DNA of 24,000 bases from Frateuria defendens (GCF_001182895.1 NZ_LFQR01000002.1:1-24000); one strand, 5' to 3'. Positions 1 through 18,860 are shown, counted from the stretch's first letter. Notes: generated by a model from the sequence alone, not told the origin. Made by a program: numbers and translations.

Positions 1-414
1 AACACCGGCCAAAGGCCGGCCAGCCTGCGATTGGGCCAACAACACAGCCTTCCCTCGCGGATACCAGCAGGGAGATCGTGAACCGGCTCTTATTTCCCGA
101 GCCGTGTGCCGGTCGCCTCCGCGTGCGCGGGGCGGCACCCTTCGCCAGCCAAAAATCGAAACCATTCGATTAAGCAATGGAGCCGAAATTAGTTGCGTTA
201 TTCGCAATAAATTACCGCCAAGGCGATTAAGACGACCAGTTGTCAGTTTCGCTACAAAAATTATCTGGCGGCGATTTTCCCTGTGCTAGCGTGCCTTCCG
301 GCAGGCGCCACCGTGCGCCTGTCCCGGGGCGGCCTTGCCGTATCCAAACGTCCCGCACCTGCAAGTCGCCGGTTTTTCTCCATATCACTGGATTTCAGCA
401 TGAGGAGTGGTTTT

Positions 415-2019: not shown

Positions 2020-2042
2020 GGCGCATGCATCGCTGAACCCGC

Positions 2043-2078
2043 GGGGCATCCGTCGCGAGGCGGATGCCCCGTTTTTTT
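2043..2078 (+). terminator. Rho-independent terminator of the peptidase gene
   Basis: Perfect 10-bp stem GGGGCATCCG (2043-2052) / CGGATGCCCC (2061-2070), 8-nt loop, then G plus T7 (2072-2078). It starts 24 nt after the stop codon. Confidence 0.85.
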
Positions 2079-2262
2079 GGAGCATCCCGCAACGGCGCCA
2101 CGCGCCCGGCGAAAGCGGGGGGCGTACCGCCCGTGCGGACATAGTGCTACCTTTCCGCCGAACAACGGGGGTTGAGTCCCGTCGTCCCCAGGAAGTCTCT
2201 CGAGCCACGTCCGCCGCCCCTCCACCGGGCGGCCTGTCCAGCCAATTTCCGGGAGCAAAACG

Positions 2263-5200: not shown

Positions 5201-5337
5201 GGGGCTTCACCGGCCAGGCCAGGAAGGGCTACGGCGCCAACACGCTGACGCCCTCCGTCGGCGACGCCAACACCCAGACGCCGGAGTTCAAGGCGTTCCT
5301 CGTCAACGTCGAAAAGACCGGCGCGCCGGCAGCCTGA
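2263..5337 (+). CDS. fdnG: Formate dehydrogenase (FDH-N/O type) catalytic alpha subunit, molybdopterin selenoprotein, Tat-exported; TGA 2854-2856 decoded as selenocysteine
   Basis: ORFs 2263..2856 and 2869..5337 are in the same frame and separated only by a TGA. The junction reads [26 protein letters not shown], the conserved Sec-His active-site motif of FdnG/FdoG. N-terminal twin-arginine signal LTRREFIK; 4Fe-4S motif CTYCSVACG...C. GGGAG lies 8 nt upstream of ATG 2263. Total 1024 codons. Confidence 0.95.
2857..2898 (+). promoter_or_regulatory. Bacterial SECIS element directing Sec insertion at the fdnG UGA
   Basis: Immediately 3' of the UGA is an apical hairpin GGUGGCCAGUCUGGCCCC (2868-2885). 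It has stem GG(U-bulge)GGCC / GGCCCC and a G/U-containing loop, and is extended by GACCGA (2861-2866) / UCGGUC (2891-2896). The architecture and reading-frame position match the E. coli fdnG/fdhF SECIS as I recall them. Confidence 0.7.
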
Positions 5338-5347
5338 GGCCACAGTC

Positions 5348-6274
5348 ATGTCAGACCTGCAATCGCAAGACTATGTTCGGCGCTCCGCCTCGACCCTGAC
5401 GCCGCCTTCGGTCCGCAGCCACGAGGACGAGGTGGCCAAGCTGATCGACGTCAGCCGCTGCATCGGCTGCAAGGCCTGCCAGTCGGCGTGCATGGAATGG
5501 AACGACCTGCGGCCGGAAGTGGGCCACTTCGAAGGCTCCTACGAGAACCCGGCGGACCTCGGCCCGAGCGTGTGGACCCTGATGAAGTTCGCCGAGCACG
5601 AGAACGAACAGGGCAACCTCGAGTGGCTGATCCGCAAGGACGGCTGCATGCACTGCGAGGACCCGGGCTGCCTGAAGGCCTGCCCGGCGCCCGGCGCGAT
5701 CGTGCAGTACGCCAACGGCATCGTCGACTTCATCAGCGACAAGTGCATCGGCTGCGGCTACTGCGTGAAGGGCTGCCCGTTCAATATCCCGCGGATCAGC
5801 AAGCAGGACCATAAGTCGTACAAGTGCACGCTCTGCTCCGACCGCGTGTCGGTCGGGCTGGAGCCGGCCTGCGTCAAGGCCTGCCCCACCGGCGCCATCA
5901 TGTTCGGCTCCAAGACCGACATGAAGCACCAGGCCGCCGAGCGCATCGAGGACCTGAAATCCCGCGGCTTCGACCAGGCCGGCCTGTACGACCCGCCGGA
6001 GGTGGGCGGCACCCACGTGATGTACGTGCTGCACCACGCGGACAAGCCCTCGCTGTACTCGGGCCTGCCCGACAAGCCGCGGATCAGCCCCGTGGTGGGC
6101 GCGTGGAAGGGCTTCATCAAGCCGCTGGCCGTGGCCGGCATCGCGCTCGCCGCCGTCGGCGCCTTCTTCCACTGGATCACCGCCGGCCCGAACGAGGTGA
6201 CCGAGGAAGACGAGGCCGAGGGCGAGCGCGTGCTGCGCGAAGCCGACGCGCACGAACCGGAGAAGTCGCCATGA
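5348..6274 (+). CDS. fdnH: Formate dehydrogenase iron-sulfur beta subunit (FdnH/FdoH/FdxH type, four 4Fe-4S clusters, C-terminal membrane anchor)
   Basis: 308 aa with four ferredoxin-type Cys clusters: [42 protein letters not shown]...CVKAC. C-terminal hydrophobic helix [26 protein letters not shown] lies 9 nt upstream of ATG 5348, which is 11 nt after the fdnG stop. Confidence 0.93.
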
Positions 6275-6930
6275 CCCGCCCGAACAACGCGATCACCCGC
6301 TATACCGCGGCGAACCGGGTCAACCACTGGATCACCGCCCTCTGCTTCGTGCTGCTCACCCTCTCGGGCCTGGCGATGTTCCACCCGATGCTGTTCTTCC
6401 TCTCCGGCCTGTTCGGCGGCGGCCAGTGGATGCGCGCGGCGCATCCGTGGATCGGCATCGTGCTGATGGCGAGCTACCTCGGCCTCATCATCCAGTTCTG
6501 GCGCGAGAACCTCGTGAACAGGGACGACGTGGCCTGGATGAAGTCGATCCGGTACGTGGCGGTCAACGACGAGGAACACGTGCCGCCGGTCGGCCGCAAC
6601 AACGCCGGCCAGAAGATGGTGTTCTGGTCGATGACGCTGCTGGTTCCGGCGCTGTTCTTCAGCGGCCTCTTGATCTGGGAGGTGTACTTCGGCGCGGCCA
6701 CCTCGATCCCGGTGCAGCGCGTGGCCGTGCTGGTGCACAGCCTGGCCGCGATCGCGGCGATCCTCGTCTGGGTCGTGCACGTCTACGCGGCGATCTGGAT
6801 CCGCCATTCGGTGCGGGCCATGACCCAGGGCTACGTGACCCCGGGCTGGGCCTGGCGCCATCACCGCAAGTGGCTGTGGGAACTGGCTTCCGAGCAGCAC
6901 GACAAGGCGCCCCCCAGGAAGCACCCGTGA
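6271..6930 (+). CDS. fdnI: Formate dehydrogenase cytochrome b556 gamma subunit
   Basis: ATG 6271 overlaps the fdnH stop (ATGA). The 219-aa product [26 protein letters not shown]... has four hydrophobic helices with conserved His residues (NHW, HPW, VHSL, VHVY). The upstream part of ORF 5824..6930 is out-of-frame read-through of fdnH. Confidence 0.9.
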
Positions 6931-7877
6931 AGCAGGCTGCAGCACCGCCCAACGCCAAGTGGACCGGCCCGGCGCAGGCCGGCGTCAAGTCGCCCGACCC
7001 GATCCTGCTCGCCGATCCCGCCAGGCGCTTCGCCGCCACCGCGCAACGGCTTGAAAACCTCGCCGCCGGGCATCCCATGGAGGCCTGGCTGCGCTTCATG
7101 GCCAGCCTCGCGCAGGCCCAGCACGCCGTGGCGACCACGCTCGCCCCCGCCGCCGCGCCCGACCCGACCGCGGTGGCCCAGGCCGTCGAGGCGCGCCTGC
7201 CACCGCTGGCGGCGGACGGCCATCGCCGCGAAGCGTCCTGGCGCGAAGGGCTCGCCCTGCTGCTCGATCGCATCGACGGCAGCGCTCTGCCGCCGGCCGC
7301 GCTGGCCGTCATGGCGCAACTGCGGCGCAGCGATGCCGCCGCGCAGGAGAAGCTGGCCGACCAGTTCCTGCGCGGCGGACTCGCCGCCGCCGATGCCGGC
7401 GCCGCCGTCTACGTGGCCGCCGCCCTGCAGGTCTATTTCACCGCCTCGGCGGCGCGCCTCAAGGCCGAAGACCTGCGGCTGCTCGAAGAGCGCGGGCTCT
7501 GCCCCTGCTGCGGCTCGCCCCCGGTATCCGGCCTGATCACCGCCAGCGGCCAGGCGCCCGGCACGCGCTACCTGTATTGCTCGCTGTGCTCCACCGCGTG
7601 GAACCACGTGCGCGCCGTGTGCATCACCTGCGGTGGCACGCGCCGGCTCTCCCTGCAGGGCATCGAGGGCGACGCTGGCCTGGTCAGGGCCGAAACCTGC
7701 GGCGAATGCCACACCTACGCCAAAGTGCTGTACCAGGTGCGCGACATGCAGGCCGACCCTTACGCGGACGACCTCGCCTCGCTGGGCCTGGACATGCTGG
7801 TCGCCGAGGAAGGCTTCGCCCGGCACGCACCGAACCCGCTGCTGCTGGTTGGTGAGACCGAAGCCGCGACCGGGTAG
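6927..7877 (+). CDS. fdhE: Formate dehydrogenase accessory/maturation protein FdhE
   Basis: GTG 6927 overlaps the fdnI stop (GTGA) and has AGGAAG at 6915-6920. Four CxxC pairs are present (CPCCG, CSLCS, CITCG, CGECH), plus the conserved tail DDLASLGLDMLVAEEGFAR..NPLLL. 316 aa, similar in length to E. coli FdhE. Confidence 0.88.
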   Translation: MKQAAAPPNAKWTGPAQAGVKSPDPILLADPARRFAATAQRLENLAAGHPMEAWLRFMASLAQAQHAVATTLAPAAAPDPTAVAQAVEARLPPLAADGHRREASWREGLALLLDRIDGSALPPAALAVMAQLRRSDAAAQEKLADQFLRGGLAAADAGAAVYVAAALQVYFTASAARLKAEDLRLLEERGLCPCCGSPPVSGLITASGQAPGTRYLYCSLCSTAWNHVRAVCITCGGTRRLSLQGIEGDAGLVRAETCGECHTYAKVLYQVRDMQADPYADDLASLGLDMLVAEEGFARHAPNPLLLVGETEAATG

Positions 7878-7889
7878 CTACACAGCCTG

Positions 7890-8095
7890 CGAGAGTGATC
7901 CCTCTCCCTCCGGGACTTGGGGTTAGCGTTGAATGTCAGCCGGCCTTTGCGAGCGCCTTACCTCGGCCTCACTCTCCCAAGCCGAATCCTTCTCCCCTTG
8001 GGAGAAGGTGCCGGCAGGCGGATGAGGGTGCGGGCGGAGCGAGGCCCCGACGGACGCCGACCTTCCCACCCTCGCCCTTGCCCTCACCGCCCGGT
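7890..8095. repeat. REP-like imperfect palindromic element(s) in the convergent fdhE/permease spacer
   Basis: Core perfect hairpin CCTTCTCC (7988-7995) / GGAGAAGG (8001-8008), flanked by imperfectly complementary CCTCACTCTCCC and GATGAGGGTG arms. A second pair is GAGGGTG (8024-8030) / CACCCTC (8067-8073). This resembles the ctctccc...gggagag...gtgaggg class of intergenic repeats common in proteobacteria. Confidence 0.45.
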
Positions 8096-8106
8096 GCTCT
8101 CGCGCA

Positions 8107-9162
8107 TCAGCGCAATTGCAGCCACACCGCCAGCACTCCGCCGAGAACGCCAAACCCGACCACCGCCACCGCGACCGCCACCAGCACCCGCACGGGAAAG
8201 GCGCGCGCGAGCATCGCCAGCGACGGCAGGCTCACCGGCGGCAAGGTCAGCAGCAAGGCGGCGGCCGGCCCGCTCCCCAGGCCCAGCGCCAGCATCGCCT
8301 GCACGATCGGCACCTCGCCGGCCGTTGGGATCACGAACAGCATCCCGGCCAGCGCCAGGGCGGCGATCCAGAACCACTGGTCGCCGATCGCCGGCCCGAT
8401 GTGCGGGAACATCCACGCGCGCAGCGCGCCCAGCAGCAGGACGATCACCACGTATTCGGGAATCAGCCGCGCCGCCATCCGCCCGAAGATCGCCATCCAG
8501 CGCCGCCCCGTCTCGGCCAGCGAGCGCGGCTCGGGCTCCGCGGGCAGCCACGGCCCGGCCGCCGCCTCCCGCCCCGGCGCGGCCATCCGGTTCGCCAGCC
8601 AGCCCAGCCCGAACACCATCGGCACGCCCAGCAGCACGCGCAGCAAGGTCCAGTGCCAGCCGAGCACGAAGCCGGTGAACACCAGGGTGGCGGGATTGAG
8701 CACGGTATTGCCGAGCCAGAACGCGATCGCGCCGCCGGGCGACGCCCTGTGCCTGCGCAAGCCCACGACCACCGGCGCCGCGCAGCAGGTGCACATCATC
8801 CCCGGCACCGCCAGCAGGCCGCCGGCCAGCACGCCGCCGAAGCCATGGCCGCCGAGCAGGCGCCCGATCCAGTGCGCCGGCAGCAAGGCCTGGATGCCCG
8901 AGCCCAGCAACAGGCCCAGCACCATCGCCTTCCAGATCGCCTTGCCATAGGCCAGCGCATAGTCGAGCGCCGCGTTCCAGGACGGCGCCGGCGCGCTCGC
9001 CGCCTCGCCCATCAGGATCGAATGGCCGATGGCATGCTCGGACGCGGCCACGAACGCGCGGCCGTAGTACGGCTGCCACTTCACGTAGAACAAGCCGGCG
9101 ACCGCCAGCAGCAGGAACACGGACAAGCGCATGGTGCGCGCTGTTTGCAGAGCGGCAGGCAT
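8107..9162 (-). CDS. Polytopic inner-membrane permease of the COG0701 / PF03773 (ArsP-like, UPF0718) family with a vicinal-cysteine motif
   Basis: 351 aa and strongly hydrophobic throughout. Motif AVPGMMCTCCAAPVVVG (Cys124, Cys126, Cys127) resembles the membrane-embedded Cys motif of this family. GGGGAG lies 5 nt upstream of ATG 9162; an alternative start is ATG 9132. Confidence 0.75.
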   Translation of the reverse strand: MPAALQTARTMRLSVFLLLAVAGLFYVKWQPYYGRAFVAASEHAIGHSILMGEAASAPAPSWNAALDYALAYGKAIWKAMVLGLLLGSGIQALLPAHWIGRLLGGHGFGGVLAGGLLAVPGMMCTCCAAPVVVGLRRHRASPGGAIAFWLGNTVLNPATLVFTGFVLGWHWTLLRVLLGVPMVFGLGWLANRMAAPGREAAAGPWLPAEPEPRSLAETGRRWMAIFGRMAARLIPEYVVIVLLLGALRAWMFPHIGPAIGDQWFWIAALALAGMLFVIPTAGEVPIVQAMLALGLGSGPAAALLLTLPPVSLPSLAMLARAFPVRVLVAVAVAVVGFGVLGGVLAVWLQLR

Positions 9163-9813
9163 CGATCTCCCCTGCGGGCAATCGGGACATTACGGCCCTA
9201 CAGGGCACGACATTGCCACCGGATGCCGCAGGCCAGGTGCGCTGCGCAGGGGCAAGACCTTCAATCGCGTGCCGCGCAGCATGCTACGGCCTGCGGGCAA
9301 AGTCACTACGGCTCGCGGGGCGCACAGCGATAAAGCGATCACCCGTACCGATCGTTCATGATCAGCGCGCCGACATCCTGACCGGCGTGAGACTATCGTT
9401 TGGAATCGGACAGAAGCGGACGTTGAGGAAGCGCAACCTCCCCCAGCTTTTTTTGGTATGACACATCAGCAAGTGGACGCGTCTCTGCGGTTGTTCGAAT
9501 CCGACGGCTGTGCGCGACATCAACGCGCTTGTCGGGCTTGGACTGCTTAAGCGTGGCGCCACTGGAGACCGTAGCATGAGCTACGAATTCGGCATGGCGC
9601 ACATCAAGCGGGGGTCACCTCAATCGGCCAGTCGTGACCAGAGTGCACGCACCTCAAACACCATGTTGCGACCGGAGAGGTGTTGGCTCGTCGGTTCGCT
9701 TCCAAACCTTCCACGTAATATCTGCTGCGCATTGAACACGAGTGGTGCATTTCTGCCGCTCGATCACTGAGATGCTTCTAGCTAGAATGGCCACAACCAG
9801 AGGAAGCGGTGGC

Positions 9814-10854
9814 ATGATAGAAGCAGTAGATCTCTTTTGTGGCGTGGGAGGACTTACCGCGGGCCTACGCGGTGAGGGCGTGCGGGTTCTCGCCGGCTAC
9901 GACATCGACTCCGCGTGCGAGTTTCCTTACCAGGAGAACAATGACGCCGAGTTCGTTCTGAAAGACGTTACCGAAGTGACGGTCGACGAGATTCGGTGCC
10001 GGTATACGCCCGGTGCTGTGCGACTGCTAGCGGGCTGCGCACCTTGCCAACCATTCTCGACATACAACCAAGGACGAGACACGAGCTCCGATCGAAAGTG
10101 GCCACTTCTCGATCAATTCGCCCGCCTGATCGAAGGGACCGCGCCCGACCTCGTAACCATGGAAAACGTCCCCGATGTCACCAAGCACGACGTATACCAC
10201 CGATTCGTTGCTACGCTGACCGACCGACCCGACCCCTACCATGTATGGGCCGGCACGGTGTCATGCGCGGACTACGGCCTACCCCAGCGACGCAAACGGC
10301 ACGTATTGTTGGCTTCTCGTCTTGGTCCAGTCGAATTGATTTCGCCAACTCACGCCGATCGACACATCACCGTGAAAGAAGCGATTGGCGCGTTACTGCC
10401 AGTAGCTGCCGGCGAAAGCGACCCCATCGACCCGCTGCACACAGCGTCGCGCCTCTCTGACATAAACATGAAGCGAATCAGGGCATCCAAGCCTGATGGA
10501 ACGTGGCGTGACTGGCCAAAACGGTTACGAGCAGCGTGTCACCAAAAAGCTTCTGGGAAGACGTATCCCGGTGTGTACGGCCGCATGTCCTGGGACAAGC
10601 CCAGCCCAACGATGACGACATTGTGCTATGGATATGGCAATGGCCGCTTTGGGCATCCTTCTCAGGACAGAGCCATCACCTTGCGTGAGGCTGCGTTGCT
10701 ACAAGCGTTTCCGCCAGACTACGTTTTCGTTCCACCTGACCAACCTGTCCACTTTCGCACGGTTGGTCGCATGATTGGCAACGCTGTTCCTGTTCGGCTT
10801 GGCGAGATCATCGCCAAGAGCCTACACCAGCATCTCGAACAACTGAGCCGCTGA
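9814..10854 (+). CDS. dcm: DNA (cytosine-5)-methyltransferase
   Basis: All canonical C5-MTase motifs are present: I DLFCGVGGLT, IV GCAPCQPFS (catalytic Cys), VI MENVPDV, VIII QRRKRHVLLAS, IX REAALLQAFPPDYVF, X IGNAVPVRLG. Preferred start is ATG 9814, with AGGAAG at 9801-9806. In-frame alternatives are ATG 9787, ATG 9772 and GTG 9742. Confidence 0.9.
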   Translation: MIEAVDLFCGVGGLTAGLRGEGVRVLAGYDIDSACEFPYQENNDAEFVLKDVTEVTVDEIRCRYTPGAVRLLAGCAPCQPFSTYNQGRDTSSDRKWPLLDQFARLIEGTAPDLVTMENVPDVTKHDVYHRFVATLTDRPDPYHVWAGTVSCADYGLPQRRKRHVLLASRLGPVELISPTHADRHITVKEAIGALLPVAAGESDPIDPLHTASRLSDINMKRIRASKPDGTWRDWPKRLRAACHQKASGKTYPGVYGRMSWDKPSPTMTTLCYGYGNGRFGHPSQDRAITLREAALLQAFPPDYVFVPPDQPVHFRTVGRMIGNAVPVRLGEIIAKSLHQHLEQLSR

Positions 10855-11260
10855 GCCCGAGTTCATCACGAAGGCGTACCCTGAGGCGGTTCGGAACGCG
10901 GGCTTCGCACTCCCATACGACGACTACACGCCAGCCGAGCTTTTCGAGTTCGGCTCGCTGTCGTACATCACGCGCCACGTTGGCTTCAAATTTCGTCCGC
11001 CAGAATTCGACGTTTGATTTCGGCTCGGATGCGAGACGGCAACCCGGGTGTCGATGCCAAAAGCACCCATGGACAAAGACCGCGACTCGGCGCCGAGGAA
11101 GGACGAGATCAGGAGACCCAGGGAGGTCCTTCCTGTGTAGACGAAACCGGCCACCCAGCGCATGCACCAGCTTCCGGACAATCAATTCGGGTCCGGTATG
11201 CTTTTGCCGCACACGGCCCATGTGCGCGCTTCGCTGGGGCGTTGTCAGCCTATCCGTCAA
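10808..11260 (-). CDS. vsr: Very-short-patch repair endonuclease (T:G mismatch nicking)
   Basis: 150 aa with the Vsr signature TGPELIVRKL...RFRLHRKDLPGSPDLVLPRRRVAVFVHGCFWHRH..C......PKSNVEFWRTKFEANVARD...LEKLGWRVVVVWECE. The only start that keeps the conserved N-terminal TPQRSAHM segment is TTG 11260. That start overlaps the upstream gene's end by 11 nt. Confidence 0.88.
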   Translation of the reverse strand: MTDRLTTPQRSAHMGRVRQKHTGPELIVRKLVHALGGRFRLHRKDLPGSPDLVLPRRRVAVFVHGCFWHRHPGCRLASEPKSNVEFWRTKFEANVARDVRQRAELEKLGWRVVVVWECEARVPNRLRVRLRDELGLSGSVVRDAGVGSWR

Positions 11261-13310
11261 GTGATGTCATCAACTCGTTCAAGCTGTTGAGCTCGGCAGT
11301 CGCTTCCATGTATTCGCCGTACGCCTGTTGAGCTCGGTGAATTAGCTCATCGTATTGAAGAATGCGCGATCCCGGTGAGACAAATCGCATCGCATTCTCA
11401 TAGTCTGCGTGATTGTGTTGTTGTTCCGGCACTGGCTGCCCAACGACGAACACAACTTCGATCGAAGGCATTGATTCCGCTTTCGCTTCACCGGTGCTCA
11501 CGAGCATCTTCTTTAGGTCATTGACGTAACCCTTACCCTGCGTCATCAACTCTTGGAGCGTAACCACCCTACCGGCCCGCTTGAGCTCGACAATGACGTG
11601 CTTTCCAGCGACCGTCTTGTATGCAATGTCCACTCTTCCGTTGCTCGTCTCGACATCGCGGTCAGCATGTGTCTCAGCAAACATCTTCGCCACACGCGTC
11701 TCCATGTACTCGGAGCCGGTCGCCCTCTCCCAGGACGGGTCAAGTAGCCAGAGTCGCTTGAAGATGTGCTGCTGGAGAACCTTTTCCTTTACGTTAAGGT
11801 CGACCGCCTTCTCAAGAGCCCGTATTGCTTCCAAACGCCCCGAGACAATGTCCCTATAGGCAGCACCTTCTACTGCATCATGATCAGCGAATAGGCGTAT
11901 CAGTTCGACAGACCCGCTTTCGATTGCCGAAGCCAGAGCATCGCTCATTCCCTTTAACTTCATCCGCTCGAAGCCGTAGATCGCATGCTTTAGCAACTGT
12001 CGACGTTCAGCTTCGTCATCAACGCGCAGACGTTCTACTACACCAATGACGCGACGCGCGTTGCGCTTCAGACCTTCGGAATCGAGCGATGCAATCCAAT
12101 TCCGTATTGCTGGGAATTCGTCCTCCACAACTGTCGGGTCGTCCATGCGGCGCCACTCCGTCCACTGCCTTTCGAGCTGCCCGAGCACCTTTTTGAGGTA
12201 TACGAGCAAATCCTCATACCGCTGATCGTCTTCGATCACGCGTTGGCGATCACTTGTCGCGATGTCCTGATCGCCGCTTTCGTCGAGAAAATCGACCTCG
12301 ATCTGGCCAGTCAGGTATTCCATGTAGTGGCGACTATCGGCAACCGCGCTGAGTATGTTTTCCTGGAACAACCGCCCTCTGGCGATGACCACGACGCCGT
12401 TCAGATTTCCGGCGGCGCCAGTGAGATCCTTTGGCTTGTACGCAGTGCCAAGCCAGCCGCGAACGCGCCGCGACGACTCCCACCCATCAAGCCGGCTATC
12501 GAGCGTCGATTCTCGCTTGACCGACTCCAGCCACTGTGGCTTCTTCCAGTCGCCTATCTTCCACAAATACTGACAAGCTGACAGGTCCCCGCGGTCCTTG
12601 GAGGTAACATCTTCGTCATTGATCGCGACAGTGAAGTCGTCCGTACCGATCACTGAGAATCGCCGGGCTAGGCGTTCACGAAGGTTCTTTGCGCGGACGC
12701 GGTGTTTCTTCAGGTCTCGCAACACGATTCGTGTGCCAACCTTAGGCATTTCTTCCTTAAGGCTGTCGAGTACTTCTGGCCTGTAACGACCTTGCTCGTG
12801 CTTGCGCGCGCTTCCGGCAACGGCTTCGATATCCGCCAGCTTCATCTTGAGCCCGCAACACTCGCCATCTTTGGTAGAGAAGACGGACACCTCCTTCGCG
12901 ATGGAAAACGGCGCGAGTTTGCCGACACCCTTGCGCCCCATGACCGGGCGACCACCCGGCGTGCGATCGTCACCTTTCGCTCGCCGCCGGTAGCCCACAG
13001 TCAGAAACTTCTCGTTGACGTCGTTATGAGTCATGCCGACCCCGTTGTCAGCAATAACAATGCAGTCGCCTGGGACATCAATCTCAATGGACACCTTCTT
13101 GGCGTCGGCGTCCCATGCGTTCGCCACGAGCTCAGTCAGCACCGCCGGTACATTGCTGTAGAGGTTGATGCCGAGGTGGTCAAGCACACTGAGCTCAATG
13201 GAAAGCTCATAGCCCCCTATCACTTCCGACTCGTCTTCAGCGTTCTCCTCAGGGACCAGCACCTCGTCCTCGTCGACCACCTCGCTCTGAGCAACTAGCT
13301 CCTTGTTCAT
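11250..13310 (-). CDS. MORC/MutL-like GHKL ATPase (HATPase_c_3 type) fused to a C-terminal PD-(D/E)xK, Shedu/DUF4263-like nuclease domain; candidate restriction/defence effector
   Basis: ATG 13310 has GGGGAG 6 nt upstream; the ORF extends to 13451, but that part looks non-coding. GHKL motifs: N-box ELVANAWDA, G1 DNGVGM, G2 GRKGVGKLAPFS, then GTRIVLRDL. MORC-like NGVVVIARGRLF follows. C-terminal EKVLQQHIFKRLWLLDPSWE...GRVDIAY...HVIVELKR gives a D...ExK nuclease core. Confidence 0.8.
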   Translation of the reverse strand: MNKELVAQSEVVDEDEVLVPEENAEDESEVIGGYELSIELSVLDHLGINLYSNVPAVLTELVANAWDADAKKVSIEIDVPGDCIVIADNGVGMTHNDVNEKFLTVGYRRRAKGDDRTPGGRPVMGRKGVGKLAPFSIAKEVSVFSTKDGECCGLKMKLADIEAVAGSARKHEQGRYRPEVLDSLKEEMPKVGTRIVLRDLKKHRVRAKNLRERLARRFSVIGTDDFTVAINDEDVTSKDRGDLSACQYLWKIGDWKKPQWLESVKRESTLDSRLDGWESSRRVRGWLGTAYKPKDLTGAAGNLNGVVVIARGRLFQENILSAVADSRHYMEYLTGQIEVDFLDESGDQDIATSDRQRVIEDDQRYEDLLVYLKKVLGQLERQWTEWRRMDDPTVVEDEFPAIRNWIASLDSEGLKRNARRVIGVVERLRVDDEAERRQLLKHAIYGFERMKLKGMSDALASAIESGSVELIRLFADHDAVEGAAYRDIVSGRLEAIRALEKAVDLNVKEKVLQQHIFKRLWLLDPSWERATGSEYMETRVAKMFAETHADRDVETSNGRVDIAYKTVAGKHVIVELKRAGRVVTLQELMTQGKGYVNDLKKMLVSTGEAKAESMPSIEVVFVVGQPVPEQQHNHADYENAMRFVSPGSRILQYDELIHRAQQAYGEYMEATAELNSLNELMTSLDG

Positions 13311-13798
13311 TCGCGACTCCCCACTGCCAGATTCGTTGTTGATTTTCGCATTTCCACAACATTTGGAGTCTCGCGCACCTGATGACCTGGGTGGGTTCTT
13401 CTCCGTTAGTGCGGATACTTCCAAGAAGCCCTCGAACACGCCAGGCCTCACCGTCCGCTACGGGTCGATTTCTGCCGGTCGACAGCAACACGCTACTGAT
13501 CATACTGATCAGCGAGACGATCATGGGCGATCGGTCGCGTGATGCGTTAGTTGCGTTACCGCATTCGCGGCGGCGATGAGTGGATGCGCGCCGTGGCAAT
13601 CCATCGCGTGCGCTCCTTCCCTGCGAAGACCATTGCACCCGCGATACCGCATCGCAAGCCACCCTCGGCACCCACGCCTGCCTTGACCCTGGTCCAGCCC
13701 ACGCCGCAGCATACGCAGCCTTGGCCTTCTTTCTCTTTTGCCGCGCGCCGGCGTGGCGCGAGCTTAAGGATCGAGGCCGGGAATCGCGATGTCACCGG

Positions 13799-15232
13799 AT
13801 GAGCGCCATGAGCGGACCCGAGGCCACCTCCCTGCGTCACCTCCCCGCGGTCGCCGCCGTGCTGGCCACGGCCGAGGCGGCTCCGCTGCTGGAGCGGCAC
13901 GGGCGCGCCGCCACCACCGACGCCATCCGCCAGGCCATCGACGCGGCGCGCGAGGCCCTGCGCGCCGCGCCCGCCACGGCGCCGAGCGCCGCCGAGCTGG
14001 CGCAGCGGGCCCAGGGGCTGCTGGAATCGCGCGCGCCCAGCCTGCGCCCGCTGTTCAACCTCACCGGCACCGTGCTGCACACCAATCTCGGCCGCGCCGT
14101 GCTGGCCGAGGCCGCCGTCGAGGCGGCGGTGGCCGCGATGCGCCACGCGGTGGCGCTGGAATACGACCTGGACAGCGGCACGCGCGGCGAGCGCGACGAT
14201 CACCTGCGCGCCCTGCTGTGCGAGCTGACCGGCGCGCAGGACGCCACCGTGGTCAACAACAACGCCGCCGCCGTGCTGCTCTGCCTCAACACGCTCGCGC
14301 TCGGGCGCGAGGCCGTGGTGTCGCGCGGCGAGCTGATCGAGATCGGTGGCGCCTTCCGCATGCCCGACATCATGGCGCGCGCCGGCGCGCGCATGGTCGA
14401 GGTGGGCACCACCAACCGCACCCATCCGGCCGACTACCGCGACGCCCTCAACGCGGACACCGGCGTCGTGCTCAAGGTGCACACCTCCAACTACCGCATC
14501 CAGGGCTTCACCGCGGAAGTCGGCGCGCGCAAGCTGGCCGCGCTCGCCGATGCCGCCGGCGTGCCGCTGCTCAACGACCTCGGCTCCGGCACCCTCGTCG
14601 ATCTCTCCCGCTACGGGCTCGCCAAAGAACCCACCGTGCGCCAGGCCGTGGCCGAGGGCGCGCGGCTGGTCACCTTCTCGGGCGACAAGCTGCTGGGCGG
14701 CCCGCAGGCCGGCTTCATCGTCGGCGACCGCGCGCTGATCGCGCGGATCAACCGCAACCCGCTCAAGCGCGCGCTGCGCGTGGACAAGCTGCGCCTGGCC
14801 GCCATCGAGGCCACGCTGAACCTGTACCGCGATCCCGACCGCCTCGCCGAACGGCTGCCCACCCTGCGCTTCCTGGCCCGCGACAAGGCCGGCATCGAGG
14901 CCCAGGCGCGCCGCCTGCTCCCGGCCGTGGCCGAGCGGCTCGGCATGGCCTTCGCGGTCGAGGTCGGCGACTGCCTGAGCCAGGTCGGCTCCGGCGCCCT
15001 GCCGCTGGATACCCTCGCCAGCGCCGCGCTGCGGATCCGCCCGCGCGGCAGCCAGCGCGAACTCGAACAGCTGGCCGCGGCGTTGCGCGCCTTGCCGCGC
15101 CCGATCGTCGGCCGCGTCGCCGACGGCGCCCTGCGCCTGGACCTGCGCTGCCTGGCCGAAACCGACGAAACACCGTTCCTGGCCTCCCTCGCGCAACTCG
15201 ACACCGGCAGCCTGGCCGCGCACGACCCATGA
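13799..15232 (+). CDS. selA: L-seryl-tRNA(Sec) selenium transferase (selenocysteine synthase)
   Basis: 477 aa from ATG 13799 (alternative ATG 13808). The N-terminal [11 protein letters not shown] resembles E. coli SelA LYSQLPAIDRLL. The PLP-lysine motif [17 protein letters not shown] is present. The first 73 codons of ORF 13580..15232 are not SelA-like. Confidence 0.92.
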
Positions 15233-17172
15233 TCATTGGCACGGCCGGCCATATCGACCACGGCAAGACCTCGCTGGTCAAAGCCCTCACCGGCGTCGAC
15301 GGCGACCGTCTCAAGGAAGAGAAGGCCCGCGGCATCACCATTGACCTCGGCTTCGCCTACCTGCCGCTGGAAGACGGCCTCACCCTCGGCTTCGTCGACG
15401 TGCCCGGCCACGAGCGCTTCGTGCACACCATGGTGGCCGGCGCCAGCGGCATCGACATCGCCCTGCTGGTGGTGGCGGCCGACGACGGAGTGATGCCGCA
15501 GACCCTCGAACACCTGGCGATCCTGGACCTGCTGCACATCCGGCGCGGCCTGGTGGCCCTGACCAAGGCCGACCTGGCGACGCCCGAGCGGCTGGCCGAG
15601 GTGCGCGCGCAGATCCGCGAAGCGACCGCGGGCACCGTGCTCGCTGGCGCCGACATCTTGCCGGTTTCCTCGGCCACGGGCGCCGGCATCGGCGCGCTGC
15701 GCGAGCGGCTTGCCGCCGAGGCGCGCACGCTGGGCGAGCGCGCCGCCGACGGCCGCTTCCGCCTGGCCATCGACCGCGTGTTCGTGCTGCCCGGCATCGG
15801 CGTGACGGTGACCGGCACCGTGCTGTCCGGCGCGGTGCGCGTCAAGGACCAGGTGCTGCTCAGCCCCTCGGGACTGGCCGCGCGCGTGCGCTCGCTGCAT
15901 GCGCAGAACCGCCCCGTGGAGAGCGGGCGGGCCGGCGACCGCTGCGCGCTCAATCTCGTCGGCGAGGGCATCGCCAAGGCGGCGATCCATCGCGGCGACA
16001 TGCTGGTCGACCCTTTCCTGCACGCGCCGACCGACCGCATCGACGCGCGCCTGCGCCTCCTGCCCGGCGAACCCAGGCCGCTCGGCCAATGGTTTCCGGC
16101 GCGGCTGCACCACGGCGCGGTCGAAGTCGGCGCGCGCATCGTGCTGCTCGAAGGCGAGCAACTGCCGCCGGGCGGCACCACCGACATCCAACTGGTGCTG
16201 GATCGGCCGATCGCCGCCGCCGCGCTCGACCGCTTCGTGCTGCGCGACGTCTCCGCCCAGCGCACCCTAGGCGGCGGCCAGTTCCTCGACCTGCGCGCGC
16301 CCTCGCGCCAGCGCCGCACCGCCGCGCGCCAGGCCCAGCGCGCCGCGCTGGCCATCGCCGATCCGCAGCAGGCCTTCGCCGCCCTGCTCGACGCGCCGCC
16401 GTTCGCGTGGGATCTTCCGGGCTTCGCGCGGGAGCGCGCCCTGTCCCCGGCCAGGCTCGATGGCATCGTCGCCGCGCTCTCGCCGCTCGTCTTCGCCGCC
16501 GGCGACGAGCGCATCGCGGTCAACCGGACGCATTGGCTGCGCTTCGTCGCCGGCGTGGTCGAGTGTCTTCAGGCCTTCCACGCCTGCCATCCGGACCTGC
16601 AAGGCATGGGACGGGAGAAGCTGCGGCTGGCCTTGCAGCCCAGGCTGCCCGCCTCCGTCTTTGCGCAGGCCCTGCAGCATGCCGACCTCGCCGACCGCGT
16701 GGTCCGCGATGGCGCTTTCGTGCGGCTGGCCAGCCATTCCCTGCAGCTGAGCGCGGAGCGCGAGGCACTGTGGCAGGCGATTGCCCCGCTGCTGGACGGC
16801 GAGGCCCGCTTCCGCCCGCCGCGGGTGCGCGACATCGCCGGCGCGCTCGCCCAGCCGGAGCCGGACATCCGGCAGCTGATGAAATTCGCCGCACGGCTGG
16901 GCCTGACCGACGAAGTGGCGCACGATCATTTCTTCCTGCGCGCGACCGTGCACGAAATGGTGCTGATCGCCGCCGACGTCGCCGCGCAGGCGCCCGACGG
17001 CCGCTTCACCGCCGCGCAGTTCCGCGACCGCCTCGACAATGGTCGAAAAGTCGCCATCCAGATACTAGAATTCTTCGACCGGCAAGGCGTCACGCTCCAT
17101 CGCGGCACCTTGCGCAGGCTCCAGGCGCGGTACCTCGATTTGTTCGGACCCGTTCCTCTGCAGTCGCGTTGA
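15229..17172 (+). CDS. selB: Selenocysteine-specific translation elongation factor
   Basis: ATG 15229 overlaps the selA stop (ATGA). GTPase motifs are [20 protein letters not shown] and LTKADL. A long C-terminal winged-helix region is present. 647 aa. Confidence 0.93.
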
Positions 17173-17174
17173 AT

Positions 17175-17271
17175 GGAAGAGAATCGTCTCCGGTGGGGCG
17201 TCCGGACTTCAAATCCGGGTGAGGCAGACAAGACTGTCTCGGGTGGGTTCGACTCCCATTCTCTTCCGCCA
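17175..17271 (+). tRNA. selC: tRNA-Sec (anticodon UCA)
   Basis: 97 nt: GGAAGAGAATCGTCTCCGGTGGGGCGTCCGGACTTCAAATCCGGGTGAGGCAGACAAGACTGTCTCGGGTGGGTTCGACTCCCATTCTCTTCCGCCA. It has an 8-bp acceptor stem GGAAGAGA/TCTCTTCC, anticodon loop CUUCAAA (UCA at 17209-17211), a long variable arm, a GGTTCGACTCC T-arm and an encoded CCA. It is close to the E. coli selC sequence. Confidence 0.95.
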
Positions 17272-17453: not shown

Positions 17454-18494
17454 TCAGGCGACTTCGACGCCGGGAGCGCCTGCCGCCACCGAGCCGATGA
17501 GGCTCGCGCGGGGGTAGCCCGCCGCCTCGATCATCGCCCGGATCGCCTCGGCCCGTTCCGCCTTGCACGCGACCAGCAGGCCGCCCGAGGTCTGCGGGTC
17601 GGTCAGCAGGGCGCGGTGCCATGCCGGCAGGTGTTCCGGCAACGCCACGCCATCGCCGTAGCTGTTCCAGTTGCGCCCCGAGGCGCCCGTGACGTAGCCC
17701 GCCTCGGCCAGCGCCTCGGCCTGGGCGAGGAAAGGAATGCGCGTCTGCTCGATACTGATCCGCAGGCCGCTGCCGCGAGCCATTTCCAGGCTGTGGCCGA
17801 GCAGGCCGAAGCCGGTGACGTCGGTGATCGCGTGCACGTCCTCGTCCTTGGCCAGCTCGGTGCCGATGCGGTTGAGCAGCGTGGTCGAGGCCAGCATCTC
17901 CGCATACGCCTCCGTCGGCAGCACCTGCTTCTTGAACGCCGCCGAATAGACGCCCACGCCGATGCCCTTGGTCAGGATCAGCGCATCGCCCGCCTGCGCC
18001 CCCGCGTTGCGGCGCACGTTGGCGGGCGCGCACAGCCCGATCGCGGCAAGCCCGTAGATCGGCTCCACCGAATCGATCGAATGGCCGCCCGCGACTGGAA
18101 TGCCGGCCTGCGCGCACACCGCCTCGCCGCCAGCGAGGATCGCCCGCACCGTCTCCACCTCCAGCTTGCCCAGCGGCATGCCCAGGATGGCCAGCGCCAT
18201 GATCGGCTTGCCGCCCATCGCATACACGTCGGACAACGCATTGGCCGCCGCGATGCGGCCGAAATCGTAAGGGTCGTCCACCACCGGCATGAAGAAATCG
18301 GTGGTGGCGATCACGCAGGTGCGCTCGTCCACCTGCCACACCGCCGCATCGTCGCTGGACTCCCTGCCGACCAGCAACTGCGCGAACGGCATCGCCGACG
18401 TCTTGCCGGCGAGCAATTCCTGCAGCACGGACGGCGCGAGCTTGCAGCCACAACCGCCGCCGTGGGCGAGGTCGGTCAGACGAGGGGAGGACAT
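17454..18494 (-). CDS. selD: Selenide, water dikinase (selenophosphate synthetase), Cys-type
   Basis: ATG 18494 has GGAG 6 nt upstream. N-terminus is [21 protein letters not shown] (glycine-rich Cys/Lys active-site loop). An AIR-synthase-like fold is suggested by [20 protein letters not shown] and GGHSID. 346 aa; the remaining upstream part of ORF ..18839 is non-coding-like. Confidence 0.93.
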
Positions 18495-18834
18495 GAGCGG
18501 CTCCTGCGGAAGGCACGATGGCGCGCGGCCAAAATCCTGCGCAGCATAGCGAAAAGCGCTCGCGCTGAAGCCGCGCATACCCGGACAGGCCGACGGCCTT
18601 ATCCGCCGAAACCGCCCGCAGGCGTCGTCACGCCGGGCATGGCTTCGGAGACCGGCGCACCCTCGGCCACGATGGCCAGCAGCAGGCCGCGCGTATCGCC
18701 CGGCGTACCGCAAAGCCGGCGTGCGCGGCCGCTCGGCACTGCTGGCCATGCTGCTGAGGGGAAACGGCAGCGCGTGAGGCCGTTCCGGCACCTCAGTTCG
18801 GCCTCGCCATGGAACCGGAGGCCTTTCTCCGGGC

Positions 18835-18860
18835 AACAAAAAACCCCTGAGGACAGGGGT
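18835..18860 (-). terminator. Rho-independent terminator downstream of tRNA-Ser
   Basis: On the minus strand: ACCCCTG-TCCT-CAGGGGT followed by TTTTTGTT (plus-strand A-run 18838-18843). It lies 10 nt after the tRNA 3' end. Confidence 0.75.

What the first reader, a model, noticed from the sequence alone, without database searches (positions are those of the whole stretch)
11250..13310. MORC-like GHKL ATPase fused to a Shedu/PD-(D/E)xK nuclease: candidate uncharacterised ATP-dependent restriction or defence effector
The 686-aa product reads as a modular enzyme, numbered from ATG 13310. (1) aa 1-30 form a strongly acidic tail (12 D/E of 30: NKELVAQSEVVDEDEVLVPEENAEDESEV); whether it acts as an autoinhibitory or DNA-mimic segment is pure speculation. 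(2) aa ~35-205 form a Bergerat-fold ATPase: N-box E60-LVAN64-AWD67, G1 D88-NGVGM, G2 G125-RKGVGKLAPFS, then GTRIVLRDL. This is the HATPase_c_3 flavour shared by MutL and MORC proteins. (3) aa ~285-320 read GWLGTAYKPKD...NGVVVIARGRLF, resembling the S5-fold transducer motif of MORCs, followed by a ~180-aa helical region. (4) aa ~505-625 read EKVLQQHIFKRLWLLDPSWE...SEYMETRV...GRVD561IAY...HVIVE575LK577R. This is a D...ExK restriction-endonuclease-fold core whose leading helix and spacing look like DUF4263, the nuclease domain that defines Shedu (SduA, Doron et al. 2018). GHKL/MORC-type ATPases embedded in restriction-modification contexts were predicted computationally (Iyer, Abhiman and Aravind 2008), and to my knowledge most remain biochemically untested. 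I do not recognise a GHKL-MORC module fused to a Shedu-type nuclease, sitting with a C5 methyltransferase and Vsr, as a characterised system. Three readings are possible: (a) an ATP-dependent restriction enzyme paired with the methyltransferase; (b) a Shedu-class sensor-nuclease that merely shares an island with an orphan Dcm-Vsr pair; (c) a modification-dependent nuclease.
Basis: partly seen in the sequence, partly recalled or inferred. Interest (0 to 1): 0.85.

Follow-up and report, generated by a model that had tools for sequence, protein, structure and literature searches.

The report
HgiDII-family restriction enzyme with methylase and Vsr
The 686-aa gene is an already named type of restriction enzyme (BbrUII/HgiDII family: an ATPase head fused to a Shedu-like DNA-cutting tail), sitting with its protective cytosine methylase and a Vsr repair nuclease on a small imported island, so it is real and correctly dissected but not new.

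Summary
The ORF at 11250-13310 (-) is real and intact. The nuclease's best solved-structure match is the Bacillus cereus Shedu nuclease.

It is not uncharacterised. It scores 735.9 bits (cut-off 550) over its full length on NCBIfam NF050001, "BbrUII/HgiDII family restriction enzyme". The exact protein is RefSeq WP_049620545.1 of Frateuria defendens, which already carries that name.

R.HgiDII's GHKL domain was described in 2008. The GHKL + S5 + restriction-fold architecture with Dcm and Vsr was described in 2008 as paraMORC3. A GHKL-DUF4263 Shedu, VcSduA, was shown in 2025 to need both its ATPase and its nuclease residues.

Among the 80 closest homologous loci, 42 have a related C5 methylase directly adjacent, five of them in the window's exact R>V><M layout. 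A further 32 sit inside class-1 DISARM operons.

Best reading: a three-gene Type II restriction-modification island, low in GC and horizontally acquired, that probably targets GTCGAC or a TCGA-core palindrome. The role of the ATPase is still biochemically unresolved.

Novelty: already known. Interest is low to moderate.

The parts
11250..13310 (-). R gene: BbrUII/HgiDII-family restriction enzyme, 686 aa (RefSeq WP_049620545.1, Frateuria defendens)
   Evidence: NCBIfam NF050001 gives 735.9 bits against a cut-off of 550, aligning aa 34-683 to model positions 1-658 of 659. PADLOC REase_II PDLC03419 gives 2e-95. Exact-sequence look-up.
13212..13310 (-). aa 1-33: acidic, disordered, non-conserved N-terminal extension. 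It lies outside the family model.
   Evidence: pLDDT below 50 for residues 1-31. Length and charge vary among homologues. The family model starts at aa 34.
12696..13211 (-). aa 34-205: GHKL (Bergerat-fold) ATPase domain. Motif I is E60/N64, motif II is D88-x-G-x-G92, motif III is G125-RKG-x-G130-K, and motif IV is G192-T193.
   Evidence: Pfam PF13589, E 1.3e-20. All motif residues are invariant in 46 sequences.
12225..12695 (-). aa 206-362: middle (transducer) domain of the Hsp90/MutL/MORC type. It includes the invariant R311-G-R313 and T352-S-D-R-Q-R357.
   Evidence: AlphaFold model with pLDDT about 90 here. The full-length Foldseek top hits are TRAP1/Hsp90 N+M domains over about 470 columns, E 3e-15.
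11799..12224 (-). aa 363-504: all-helical linker or arm
   Evidence: DSSP helices 363-504 in the model. No family match.
11253..11798 (-). aa 505-686: PD-(D/E)xK nuclease domain, Shedu-like. Candidate catalytic residues are E537, D561, E575, K577 and Q591.
   Evidence: Invariant residues. Helix-strand-strand-helix-strand topology. Foldseek top PDB hit is 8ti9, the B. cereus Shedu nuclease, followed by FokI, EcoT38I and Kpn2I. SduA_C is sub-threshold in 11 of 14 members and NucS_C in 6 of 14.
10808..11260 (-). vsr: very-short-patch-repair T:G mismatch endonuclease, 150 aa with a TTG start. Its start overlaps the R stop codon by 11 nt, so it lies in the same operon.
   Evidence: TIGR00632, 142 bits against a cut-off of 97.85, over model positions 1-119. 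Pfam Vsr 3e-28. Coordinates.
9742..10854 (+). M gene: C5-cytosine DNA methyltransferase. The ORF starts at GTG 9742; the likely start is ATG 9814. It converges on vsr, and the two 3' ends overlap by 47 nt.
   Evidence: PF00145, E 4e-47. Motifs FCGVGG, PCQ, ENV, QRRKR and GNAVP are read directly from the translation. Best PADLOC hits are DrmMII at 8e-82 and MTase_II at 9e-80.
9200..13550 (.). Low-GC island (about 55-60% GC against about 70% in the flanks) that carries only M, vsr and R. It is inserted between a permease gene (8107-9162, -) and selA (13580-15232, +).
   Evidence: Composition profile. GC3 is 0.58-0.65 in the island genes and 0.85-0.96 in the flanking genes. Flanking genes identified.

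Best explanation
**What it is.** This is a horizontally acquired three-gene Type II restriction-modification cassette in Frateuria defendens.

**Proposed roles of the three genes.**
- The C5 methyltransferase marks the host's copies of a short palindromic site. The site is probably GTCGAC, the site of the family prototype HgiDII, or a closely related TCGA-core palindrome.
- The 686-aa BbrUII/HgiDII-family enzyme cuts unmethylated copies of that site in incoming DNA, using its C-terminal Shedu-like PD-(D/E)xK domain (E537, D561, E575-x-K577).
- Vsr is translated from the same operon as R. It nicks the T:G mismatches that arise when 5-methylcytosine deaminates, which offsets the mutagenic cost of the methylase.

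**Proposed role of the ATPase.** The N-terminal GHKL ATPase and the Hsp90/MutL-type middle domain most likely act as an ATP-driven dimerisation clamp. The clamp would bring two nuclease domains together on DNA and gate cleavage or turnover.

**Shown here:** gene integrity, family membership, fold assignments, motif conservation, and conserved linkage to the methylase and Vsr.

**Inferred:** the recognition sequence, dimer formation, and whether ATP is needed for cleavage.
For: **Family membership**
- NF050001 'BbrUII/HgiDII family restriction enzyme' (equivalog) matches at 735.9 bits against a cut-off of 550, full length, E 4e-221.
- PADLOC REase_II matches at 2e-95.
- The exact protein carries that name in RefSeq.
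- M.HgiDII is a characterised m5C methylase for GTCGAC (PMC5867850). R.HgiDII is a Type IIP enzyme with an N-terminal GHKL domain (PMC2441816).

**Synteny in the 80 closest species-level loci**
- 42 loci have an M homologue (46-69% identical to the window's M) directly adjacent.
- 5 loci have the identical R>V><M order.
- 21 more loci show M and/or Vsr at the head of a larger operon.
- Only 2 loci with full 8-kb flanks lack any M.

**Other support**
- The R stop codon and the vsr start overlap by 11 nt.
- The target-recognition region of the linked methylases (aa 245-314) is as conserved (0.58-0.77 identity) as the catalytic motifs. This is consistent with a shared specificity.
- Full-length relatives at 23-39% identity also sit next to Dcm genes: five plasmid records (H3, H4, H6, H7, H8), including two archaeal plasmids.
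- All four GHKL motifs and the E-D-ExK-Q nuclease motifs are invariant across the family.
- The nuclease fold is supported by Foldseek and by Pfam sub-threshold hits.
- In the architecturally equivalent VcSduA, E27A (ATPase) and K557A (nuclease) each abolish defence (PMC12137116).
- The low-GC island indicates horizontal acquisition.
Against: - No experiment or methylome is available for this strain. The GTCGAC specificity is extrapolated from prototypes whose sequences I could not retrieve and align.
- The nearest homologues are only 55-58% identical.
- GTCGAC is not avoided in the island: 5 sites in 4.5 kb. This is neutral evidence.
- From memory, HgiDII was characterised as an ordinary Type IIP enzyme in standard buffers. 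If that is right, ATP may not be needed for cleavage in vitro, and the role of the ATPase stays unexplained.
- VcSduA has the same architecture and defends without any methylase and without toxicity. The architecture alone therefore does not prove dependence on a methylase.
- 32 of the 80 homologous loci place the gene inside class-1 DISARM operons. The family may therefore work in more than one mode.
Confidence: 0.8

Rival explanations
1. R is a stand-alone Shedu type 1D (paraMORC3-like) sensor nuclease. It recognises a feature of infection or DNA ends rather than an unmethylated sequence, and it merely shares an island with an orphan Dcm-Vsr pair.
For: - The C-terminal domain's best solved-structure match is the B. 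cereus Shedu nuclease, and SduA_C gives sub-threshold hits in 11 of 14 members.
- GHKL-DUF4263 proteins are classed as Shedu type 1D.
- VcSduA works alone, without a methylase.
- Iyer et al. noted paraMORC3 members without conserved neighbours.
- Two homologous loci with full flanks have no methylase within 8 kb.
Against: - The protein meets the equivalog cut-off of a restriction-enzyme family.
- PF14082 is not reached: 14.5 bits against a cut-off of 27.
- A homologous methylase with a conserved target-recognition region is linked in at least 65 of 80 loci.
- R and vsr overlap, so they form one operon.
- Relatives at only 23-27% identity still sit directly beside Dcm genes.
Confidence: 0.1
2. 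R is a modification-dependent (Type IV-like) nuclease that attacks DNA carrying a foreign modification. The neighbouring methylase would be unrelated or antagonistic.
For: GHKL or other NTPase domains coupled to nucleases occur in modification-dependent systems.
Against: - A nuclease that cut m5C DNA would be incompatible with a tightly linked, intact C5 methylase in the same cassette. That pairing is conserved in most homologous loci.
- The family prototype HgiDII is paired with M.HgiDII as a classical restriction-modification system.
- No modified-base-reader domain (SRA, EVE, YTH) was detected.
Confidence: 0.02
3. The cassette is a decaying or silent remnant of a larger DISARM-type system, and R is no longer functional on its own.
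For: 32 of 80 homologous loci have the gene between drmMI and drmA of class-1 DISARM operons. The window's M has DrmMII as its best PADLOC hit.
Against: - All three genes are intact, with every catalytic motif present.
- The same minimal three-gene layout recurs in five other species, and M-R pairs without DISARM occur in 42 loci.
- No DISARM gene is present anywhere in the 24-kb window. The flanks are fdh, sel, alaS and recA genes.
Confidence: 0.05

Closest known systems
R.HgiDII / R.BbrUII (NCBIfam NF050001, BbrUII/HgiDII family restriction enzyme; Type IIP, with GTCGAC as HgiDII's site)
   Same: The protein matches full length above the equivalog cut-off. It has the N-terminal GHKL domain reported for R.HgiDII. 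It is partnered with an M.HgiDII-like C5 methylase.
   Different: - Identity to the prototypes themselves could not be measured. The closest database relatives are 55-58% identical.
- The recognition site is not verified.
- In 2008 the C-terminal domain of R.HgiDII was left 'unassigned to any known fold'. Here it is assigned to a Shedu-like PD-(D/E)xK fold.
paraMORC3 (Iyer, Abhiman & Aravind 2008)
   Same: It has GHKL + S5-type domain + a C-terminal restriction-endonuclease-fold domain with E-D-ExK. It is associated with Dcm methylases and Vsr and is laterally mobile.
   Different: That paper gives no model or accessible member list, so formal membership could not be tested. The paper does not mention HgiDII (0 occurrences).
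VcSduA / Shedu type 1D (GHKL-DUF4263), Vibrio cholerae WASA lineage
   Same: - The order of domains is the same.
- The catalytic Glu of the ATPase corresponds: E27 in VcSduA, and E60 here, which is position 27 once the 33-aa tail is removed.
- The ExK lysine is near the same position: K557 in VcSduA, K577 here.
- Both activities are required for defence in VcSduA.
   Different: - VcSduA is a single-gene system that works without a methylase and is not toxic.
- Its nuclease domain is recognised as DUF4263. The window protein's domain falls below the PF14082 threshold.
- The window protein is genetically tied to M and Vsr.
Canonical Shedu SduA (B. cereus; PDB 8ti8/8ti9)
   Same: It is the best solved-structure match for the nuclease domain. 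The motif I-IV pattern E...D...ExK...Q is the same.
   Different: - The match is weak: TM 0.46, 11% identity.
- The N-terminal sensor differs (sPC4/Whirly in SduA, GHKL here).
- SduA forms a tetramer and senses DNA ends or infection, not methylation.
MutL / MORC / Hsp90 GHKL+transducer ATPases
   Same: It has a Bergerat ATP-binding fold followed by a transducer-type middle domain.
   Different: - The best whole-protein structural matches are Hsp90/TRAP1 rather than MORC or MutL.
- Sequence similarity to each is marginal, E 0.0015-0.005.
- It has no CW, coiled-coil-hinge or MutL C-terminal domains.

Membership tests
BbrUII/HgiDII family restriction enzyme (NF050001) | Whole-protein HMM score at or above the curated equivalog cut-off (550 bits), with full-length coverage | tested here: met
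   735.9 bits, E 4.4e-221; aa 34-683 align to model positions 1-658 of 659.
BbrUII/HgiDII family restriction enzyme (NF050001) | Genetic pairing with an M.HgiDII-like C5 cytosine methyltransferase | tested here: met
   An intact PF00145 methylase lies within the same island. Homologous methylases are linked to R homologues in at least 65 of 80 loci, with a conserved target-recognition region.
BbrUII/HgiDII family restriction enzyme (NF050001) | Site-specific cleavage (GTCGAC for HgiDII) that is blocked by the cognate m5C methylation | not testable with these tools
   This needs enzyme assays or methylome data. The prototype sequences were not retrievable for a direct TRD/R alignment.
GHKL ATPase superfamily | Bergerat-fold motifs I-IV (ExxxN; DxGxG; GxxGxG; GT) | tested here: met
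   PF13589 gives 74.2 bits against a cut-off of 25. E60, N64, D88, G90, G92, G125, G128, G130 and T193 are invariant.
MORC family sensu stricto | MORC-specific signature beyond the generic GHKL+S5 pair (per Iyer et al., paraMORCs lack the motif that unifies MORCs) | tested here: inconclusive
   - MORC3 matches only at E 0.004, on a par with HtpG (0.0015) and MutL (0.0046).
- The 50 best structural matches listed are all Hsp90-family proteins: TRAP1, Hsp90, Hsc82, GRP94, HtpG.
- Literature statement.
Shedu (SduA) | DUF4263 / PF14082 SduA_C domain at or above the Pfam gathering score (27 bits) | tested here: not met
   The isolated C-terminal domain gives 14.5 bits, E 0.042. 11 of 14 family members give sub-threshold hits, best E 1.4e-4. 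There is no hit in the full-length scan at E<=1.
Shedu (SduA) | Nuclease-domain fold like the solved Shedu structures | tested here: met
Shedu (SduA) | A single-gene defence system that works without a cognate methyltransferase | tested here: not met
   Linkage to a C5 methylase and Vsr is conserved, and R and vsr overlap in one operon. This is genomic evidence only, not functional evidence.
paraMORC3 | GHKL + S5-type domain + C-terminal RE-fold domain with E-D-ExK; Dcm/Vsr neighbourhoods | tested here: met
   Architecture. E537, D561 and E575xK577 are invariant. Neighbours. The features match the description in PMC2292703. A member list or model was not available, so formal assignment remains unverified.
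Vsr (very short patch repair endonuclease) | TIGR00632 at or above its cut-off | tested here: met
   142.1 bits against a cut-off of 97.85, over model positions 1-119 of 119.
DISARM class 1 | drmD, drmMI, drmA, drmB (and drmC) present beside the gene | tested here: not met
   The window's other genes are fdnG/H, fdhE, a permease, selA, selB, selD, alaS, recX and recA. DISARM genes flank homologues in 32 of 80 other loci, but not here.

The most novel reading that the evidence does not exclude
The BbrUII/HgiDII 'Type IIP' enzymes may be a methylase-partnered branch of the GHKL-Shedu (type 1D / paraMORC3) nucleases, in which site-specific cleavage is gated by an ATP-driven clamp. If so, a classical restriction enzyme and a 'sensor' Shedu would share one mechanism. 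The same module may also serve as the working nuclease of the many class-1 DISARM operons in which it sits between drmMI and drmA. In those systems the annotated nuclease DrmC is reported to be dispensable. On this reading, the Frateuria island is the minimal free-standing form of that module.
Probability: 0.3. Interest if true: 0.55.

Novelty: already known. Interest (0 to 1): 0.25.

Why it matters
**For this window, little.** The gene is a correctly annotated member of a named restriction-enzyme family, inside an ordinary imported restriction-modification island.

**Residual value for the family**
- No member has a solved structure.
- In 2008 its nuclease domain was listed as an unknown fold.
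- I found no biochemical account of what the strictly conserved GHKL ATPase does in a supposedly simple Type IIP enzyme.
- Linking it to Shedu type 1D and to class-1 DISARM operons gives a tractable model for how ATP-driven clamps control PD-(D/E)xK nucleases in defence.

Tried and rejected
- **Profile search.** A profile of the C-terminal domain searched against PDB sequences gave only spurious hits, such as fluorescent proteins at E about 0.4.
- **Island boundaries.** I looked for markers of mobility at the island edges.
  - No tRNA lies at the edges; tRNA-Sec is 3.7 kb away.
  - No integrase or transposase was found.
  - Only short imperfect repeats were found. One is a 20-nt pair, 85% identical, at 9744-9763 and 13463-13482, which could be chance.
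- **Controller protein.** Small ORFs in the 9162-9742 and 13310-13710 spacers gave no C-protein or HTH match.
- **Promoters.** The scan found no more sites than shuffled controls.
- **GTCGAC avoidance.** None was seen.
- **Prototype literature.** The primary BbrUII paper (PMC3815753) is not held. The VcSduA hit table was truncated in the stored supplement. I could not align the window protein directly with R.HgiDII, R.BbrUII or VcSduA.
- **Acidic tail.** I rejected the idea of a functional acidic N-terminal tail. It is not conserved, is disordered, and lies outside the family model.
- **Histidine-kinase sensor.** I rejected this reading. The match is to HATPase_c_3 with an Hsp90-type middle domain, and there is no HisKA/DHp domain.
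Full report
**1. Observation**

The ORF on the minus strand from ATG 13310 to the stop at 11250 translates cleanly into 686 aa. ATG 13310 is preceded by GGGGAG with a 6-nt spacer. An exact-sequence look-up shows that the 686-aa product is RefSeq WP_049620545.1 of Frateuria defendens. The RecA encoded in the window is also identical to that species' RecA.

In a 46-sequence alignment of homologues (47-57% identical to the query, 52% mean column identity) the following are invariant:
- ATPase residues: E60, N64, D67, D88, G90, G92, G125-R-K-G128, G130, K131, T193.
- Nuclease residues: E537, D561, E575, K577, Q591.

The acidic N-terminal 30 residues exist. They vary in length and charge among homologues, are modelled as disordered, and lie outside the family profile. 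I treat them as a non-conserved extension.

**2. What the protein is**

*Family assignment*
- Pfam sees HATPase_c_3 (E 1.3e-20). In the C-terminus it sees only a weak NucS_C hit.
- NCBIfam gives a full-length, above-cut-off equivalog match to NF050001, "BbrUII/HgiDII family restriction enzyme": 735.9 bits against a cut-off of 550, E 4e-221.
- PADLOC calls it REase_II at 2e-95.
- RefSeq already gives it that family name.
- No relative has a solved structure. The only PDB sequence hits are marginal matches of the ATPase domain to HtpG, MORC3 and MutL.

*Full-length model.* An AlphaFold model built on the family alignment has mean pLDDT 80.7 and shows four parts:
- a Bergerat-fold domain (aa ~34-205);
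- an α/β middle domain (aa ~206-362, pLDDT about 90);
- an all-helical arm (aa 363-504);
- a C-terminal α/β domain.

By Foldseek the whole protein best matches the N+M domains of TRAP1/Hsp90 over about 470 columns, E 3e-15. It is therefore a GHKL-plus-transducer ATPase of the Hsp90/MutL/MORC/topoisomerase class. It is not a histidine-kinase sensor, and it is not specifically a MORC.

*C-terminal domain.* A separate model of aa 495-686 (pLDDT 78.6) gave these results:
- Its best PDB match is the Bacillus cereus Shedu nuclease domain 8ti9 (E 1.6e-3, prob 0.99, TM about 0.46). FokI, EcoT38I, Kpn2I and Mus81 follow.
- In the viral library it matches RecB-family and restriction nucleases, and Rpb5 proteins of giant viruses.
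- Scanned alone, the C-terminal domains of 14 family members hit Pfam SduA_C (DUF4263) in 11 cases and NucS_C in 6. All hits are below the gathering score.

The domain is a PD-(D/E)xK nuclease whose nearest recognisable relatives are Shedu and NucS.

**3. Surroundings**

The three genes M (9742-10854, +), vsr (10808-11260, -) and R (11250-13310, -) make up a low-GC island. Its GC is about 55-60% against about 70% in the flanks. GC3 is 0.58-0.65 in the island genes and 0.85-0.96 in the flanking genes.

The window's gene order is:
- fdnG (selenocysteine-containing), fdnH, fdhE and a permease on one side of the island;
- selA, selB, tRNA-Sec, selD, tRNA-Ser, alaS, recX and recA on the other.

No integrase, no tRNA at the edges and no convincing flanking repeat marks the boundaries.

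M has all the C5-methylase motifs. Vsr passes TIGR00632. The vsr start overlaps the R stop by 11 nt, so R and vsr form one operon. M converges on them with a 47-nt overlap at the 3' ends.

**4. Related loci**

The family is large: 2,711 database proteins at E<=1e-5 among the candidates scored, and at least 583 GTDB species representatives. I examined the 80 best loci.

| Arrangement | Loci |
|---|---|
| Homologous C5 methylase directly next to R | 42 |
| R between drmMI and drmA of a class-1 DISARM operon | 32 |
| M within 8 kb but not adjacent | 2 |
| No M seen, flanks truncated | 2 |
| No M within full 8-kb flanks | 2 |

- Of the 42 simple loci, 18 also have vsr. Five have exactly the window's R>V><M order: L001, L002, L020, L065, L068.
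- In the 32 DISARM loci the operon reads drmD-drmMI-R-drmA-drmB-drmC. PADLOC confirmed these names for L004.
- In 21 of those 32 loci, the M.HgiDII-like methylase and/or vsr is visible in the flanks; where both are seen they lead the operon, as in L004.

The target-recognition region of the linked methylases is as conserved as their catalytic motifs. This is consistent with one shared or closely related specificity.

More distant full-length relatives (23-39% identical, 250-336 bits on NF050001, below its cut-off) occur on plasmids of Rubrobacter, Deinococcus, haloarchaea, Acinetobacter, Streptococcus and Campylobacter. A Dcm gene lies beside them in five of these records (H3, H4, H6, H7, H8), including the three I opened.

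**5. Mechanism**

The best-supported reading is a classical Type II restriction-modification cassette:
- M methylates C5 in a short palindrome.
- R cuts unmethylated copies.
- Vsr repairs the T:G mismatches created when 5mC deaminates.

M.HgiDII methylates GTCGAC. The related DrmMII of a Serratia class-1 DISARM system methylates MTCGAK. GTCGAC or another TCGA-core palindrome is therefore the most likely target here. This is inference.

All four ATP-binding motifs are invariant across the family. The architecturally equivalent VcSduA loses its defence function with an E27A ATPase mutation. ATP binding or hydrolysis is therefore almost certainly functional.

By analogy with Hsp90, MutL and MORC, I propose that ATP-driven N-terminal dimerisation closes a clamp. 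The clamp would position the two nuclease domains on the palindrome. This step is inferred and untested. From memory, HgiDII was handled as an ordinary Type IIP enzyme, which leaves open whether ATP is needed for cleavage itself.

**6. Comparison with what is known**

- Iyer, Abhiman and Aravind (2008) described paraMORC3 as GHKL + S5 + a C-terminal RE-fold domain with E-D-ExK, found with Dcm and Vsr.
- Gu et al. placed GHKL (HATPase_c_3) + middle-domain + DUF4263 proteins in Shedu type 1D.
- Adams et al. (2025) showed that VcSduA, which they equate with paraMORC3, needs both catalytic centres and acts without abortive infection.

The architecture, its genomic partners and its defence function are thus all in the literature, and this very protein carries the family name. 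What the present analysis adds is modest:
- an explicit assignment of the HgiDII-family C-terminal domain to a Shedu-like PD-(D/E)xK fold;
- a census of its genomic contexts.

**7. Verdict**

Novelty: already known. Interest: 0.25.

The most novel reading not excluded is that the family unifies Type IIP restriction with ATP-gated Shedu nucleases and supplies the nuclease for many class-1 DISARM operons. I give it a probability of about 0.3, and it would merit about 0.55 interest if true.

Noticed in passing
L004 1-16550; also L009, L010, L017, L019, L025, L027, L030, L033, L037, L040, L051, L054, L060, L063 and others: In 32 of the 80 closest homologous loci, the BbrUII/HgiDII-family gene sits between drmMI and drmA of a complete class-1 DISARM operon (drmD-drmMI-R-drmA-drmB-drmC, PADLOC-confirmed in L004). 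These copies score even higher on NF050001 (865 bits) than the window protein. In 21 of the 32, the M.HgiDII-like C5 methylase and/or vsr is visible in the flanks. The characterised Serratia class-1 DISARM description lists no such gene. I do not know whether this association has been reported.
   Followed up: partly
window 2263-5337 (+), SECIS at 2851-2909; tRNA-Sec at 17175-17271 (+); selA 13580-15232, selB 15229-17172, selD 17454-18839 (-): The formate dehydrogenase alpha subunit carries an in-frame TGA at 2854-2856, read as RV-U-HGPTV, with an Rfam SECIS_3 element over it (82.6 bits). The complete selenocysteine machinery (selA, selB, tRNA-Sec, selD) lies on the other side of the restriction-modification island. 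The island has therefore landed in the middle of an fdh-sel locus.
   Followed up: yes
window 9744-9763 and 13463-13482: A 20-nt imperfect direct repeat (GGTGCATTTCTGCCGCTCGA / GGTCGATTTCTGCCGGTCGA, 85% identical) brackets the three-gene cassette almost exactly. It could be a remnant of the insertion event or a chance match. No integrase, transposase or edge tRNA accompanies it.
   Followed up: partly
window 9742-10854 (+): The methylase's best PADLOC hit is DrmMII (8e-82), marginally ahead of MTase_II. The DrmMII of the Serratia class-1 DISARM system methylates MTCGAK, which shares the TCGA core with HgiDII's GTCGAC. This suggests one methylase lineage serves both plain restriction-modification cassettes and DISARM.
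   Followed up: partly
L081 (Acinetobacter wuhouensis pOXA23_010062) 1-6860: A distant M-R pair of this architecture (R 25% identical, 315 bits on NF050001) lies immediately downstream of genes annotated as Mu transposase C-terminal domain protein, TniB and TniQ, that is, as apparent cargo of a Tn7/Tn5053-like transposon on a resistance plasmid.
   Followed up: no
H3 NZ_CP081960.1 (Halobaculum magnesiiphilum) and H4 NZ_CP147875.1 (Haloplanus sp.) plasmids: Full-length relatives (36-37% identical, 95% coverage) occur on haloarchaeal plasmids next to DNA cytosine methyltransferases. The module therefore crosses the bacteria-archaea boundary. The Haloferax methylase HVO_C0040 was earlier reported as homologous to M.HgiDII.
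   Followed up: no
L082 (Streptococcus agalactiae pR31-snf2-M) 2955-8155: A 581-aa relative lacks the N-terminal part of the GHKL domain: its alignment starts at position 26 of HATPase_c_3, so the ExxxN box is missing. It sits between a HaeIII-family restriction-modification pair and a second Dcm. It may be an ATPase-dead or mis-started variant.
   Followed up: no
window 13223 versus 13310: Two database versions of the protein differ in their start: 657 aa from GTG 13223 (MetaClust) and 686 aa from ATG 13310 (RefSeq). The Shine-Dalgarno sequence favours ATG 13310, but the extra 29 residues are not conserved.
   Followed up: yes
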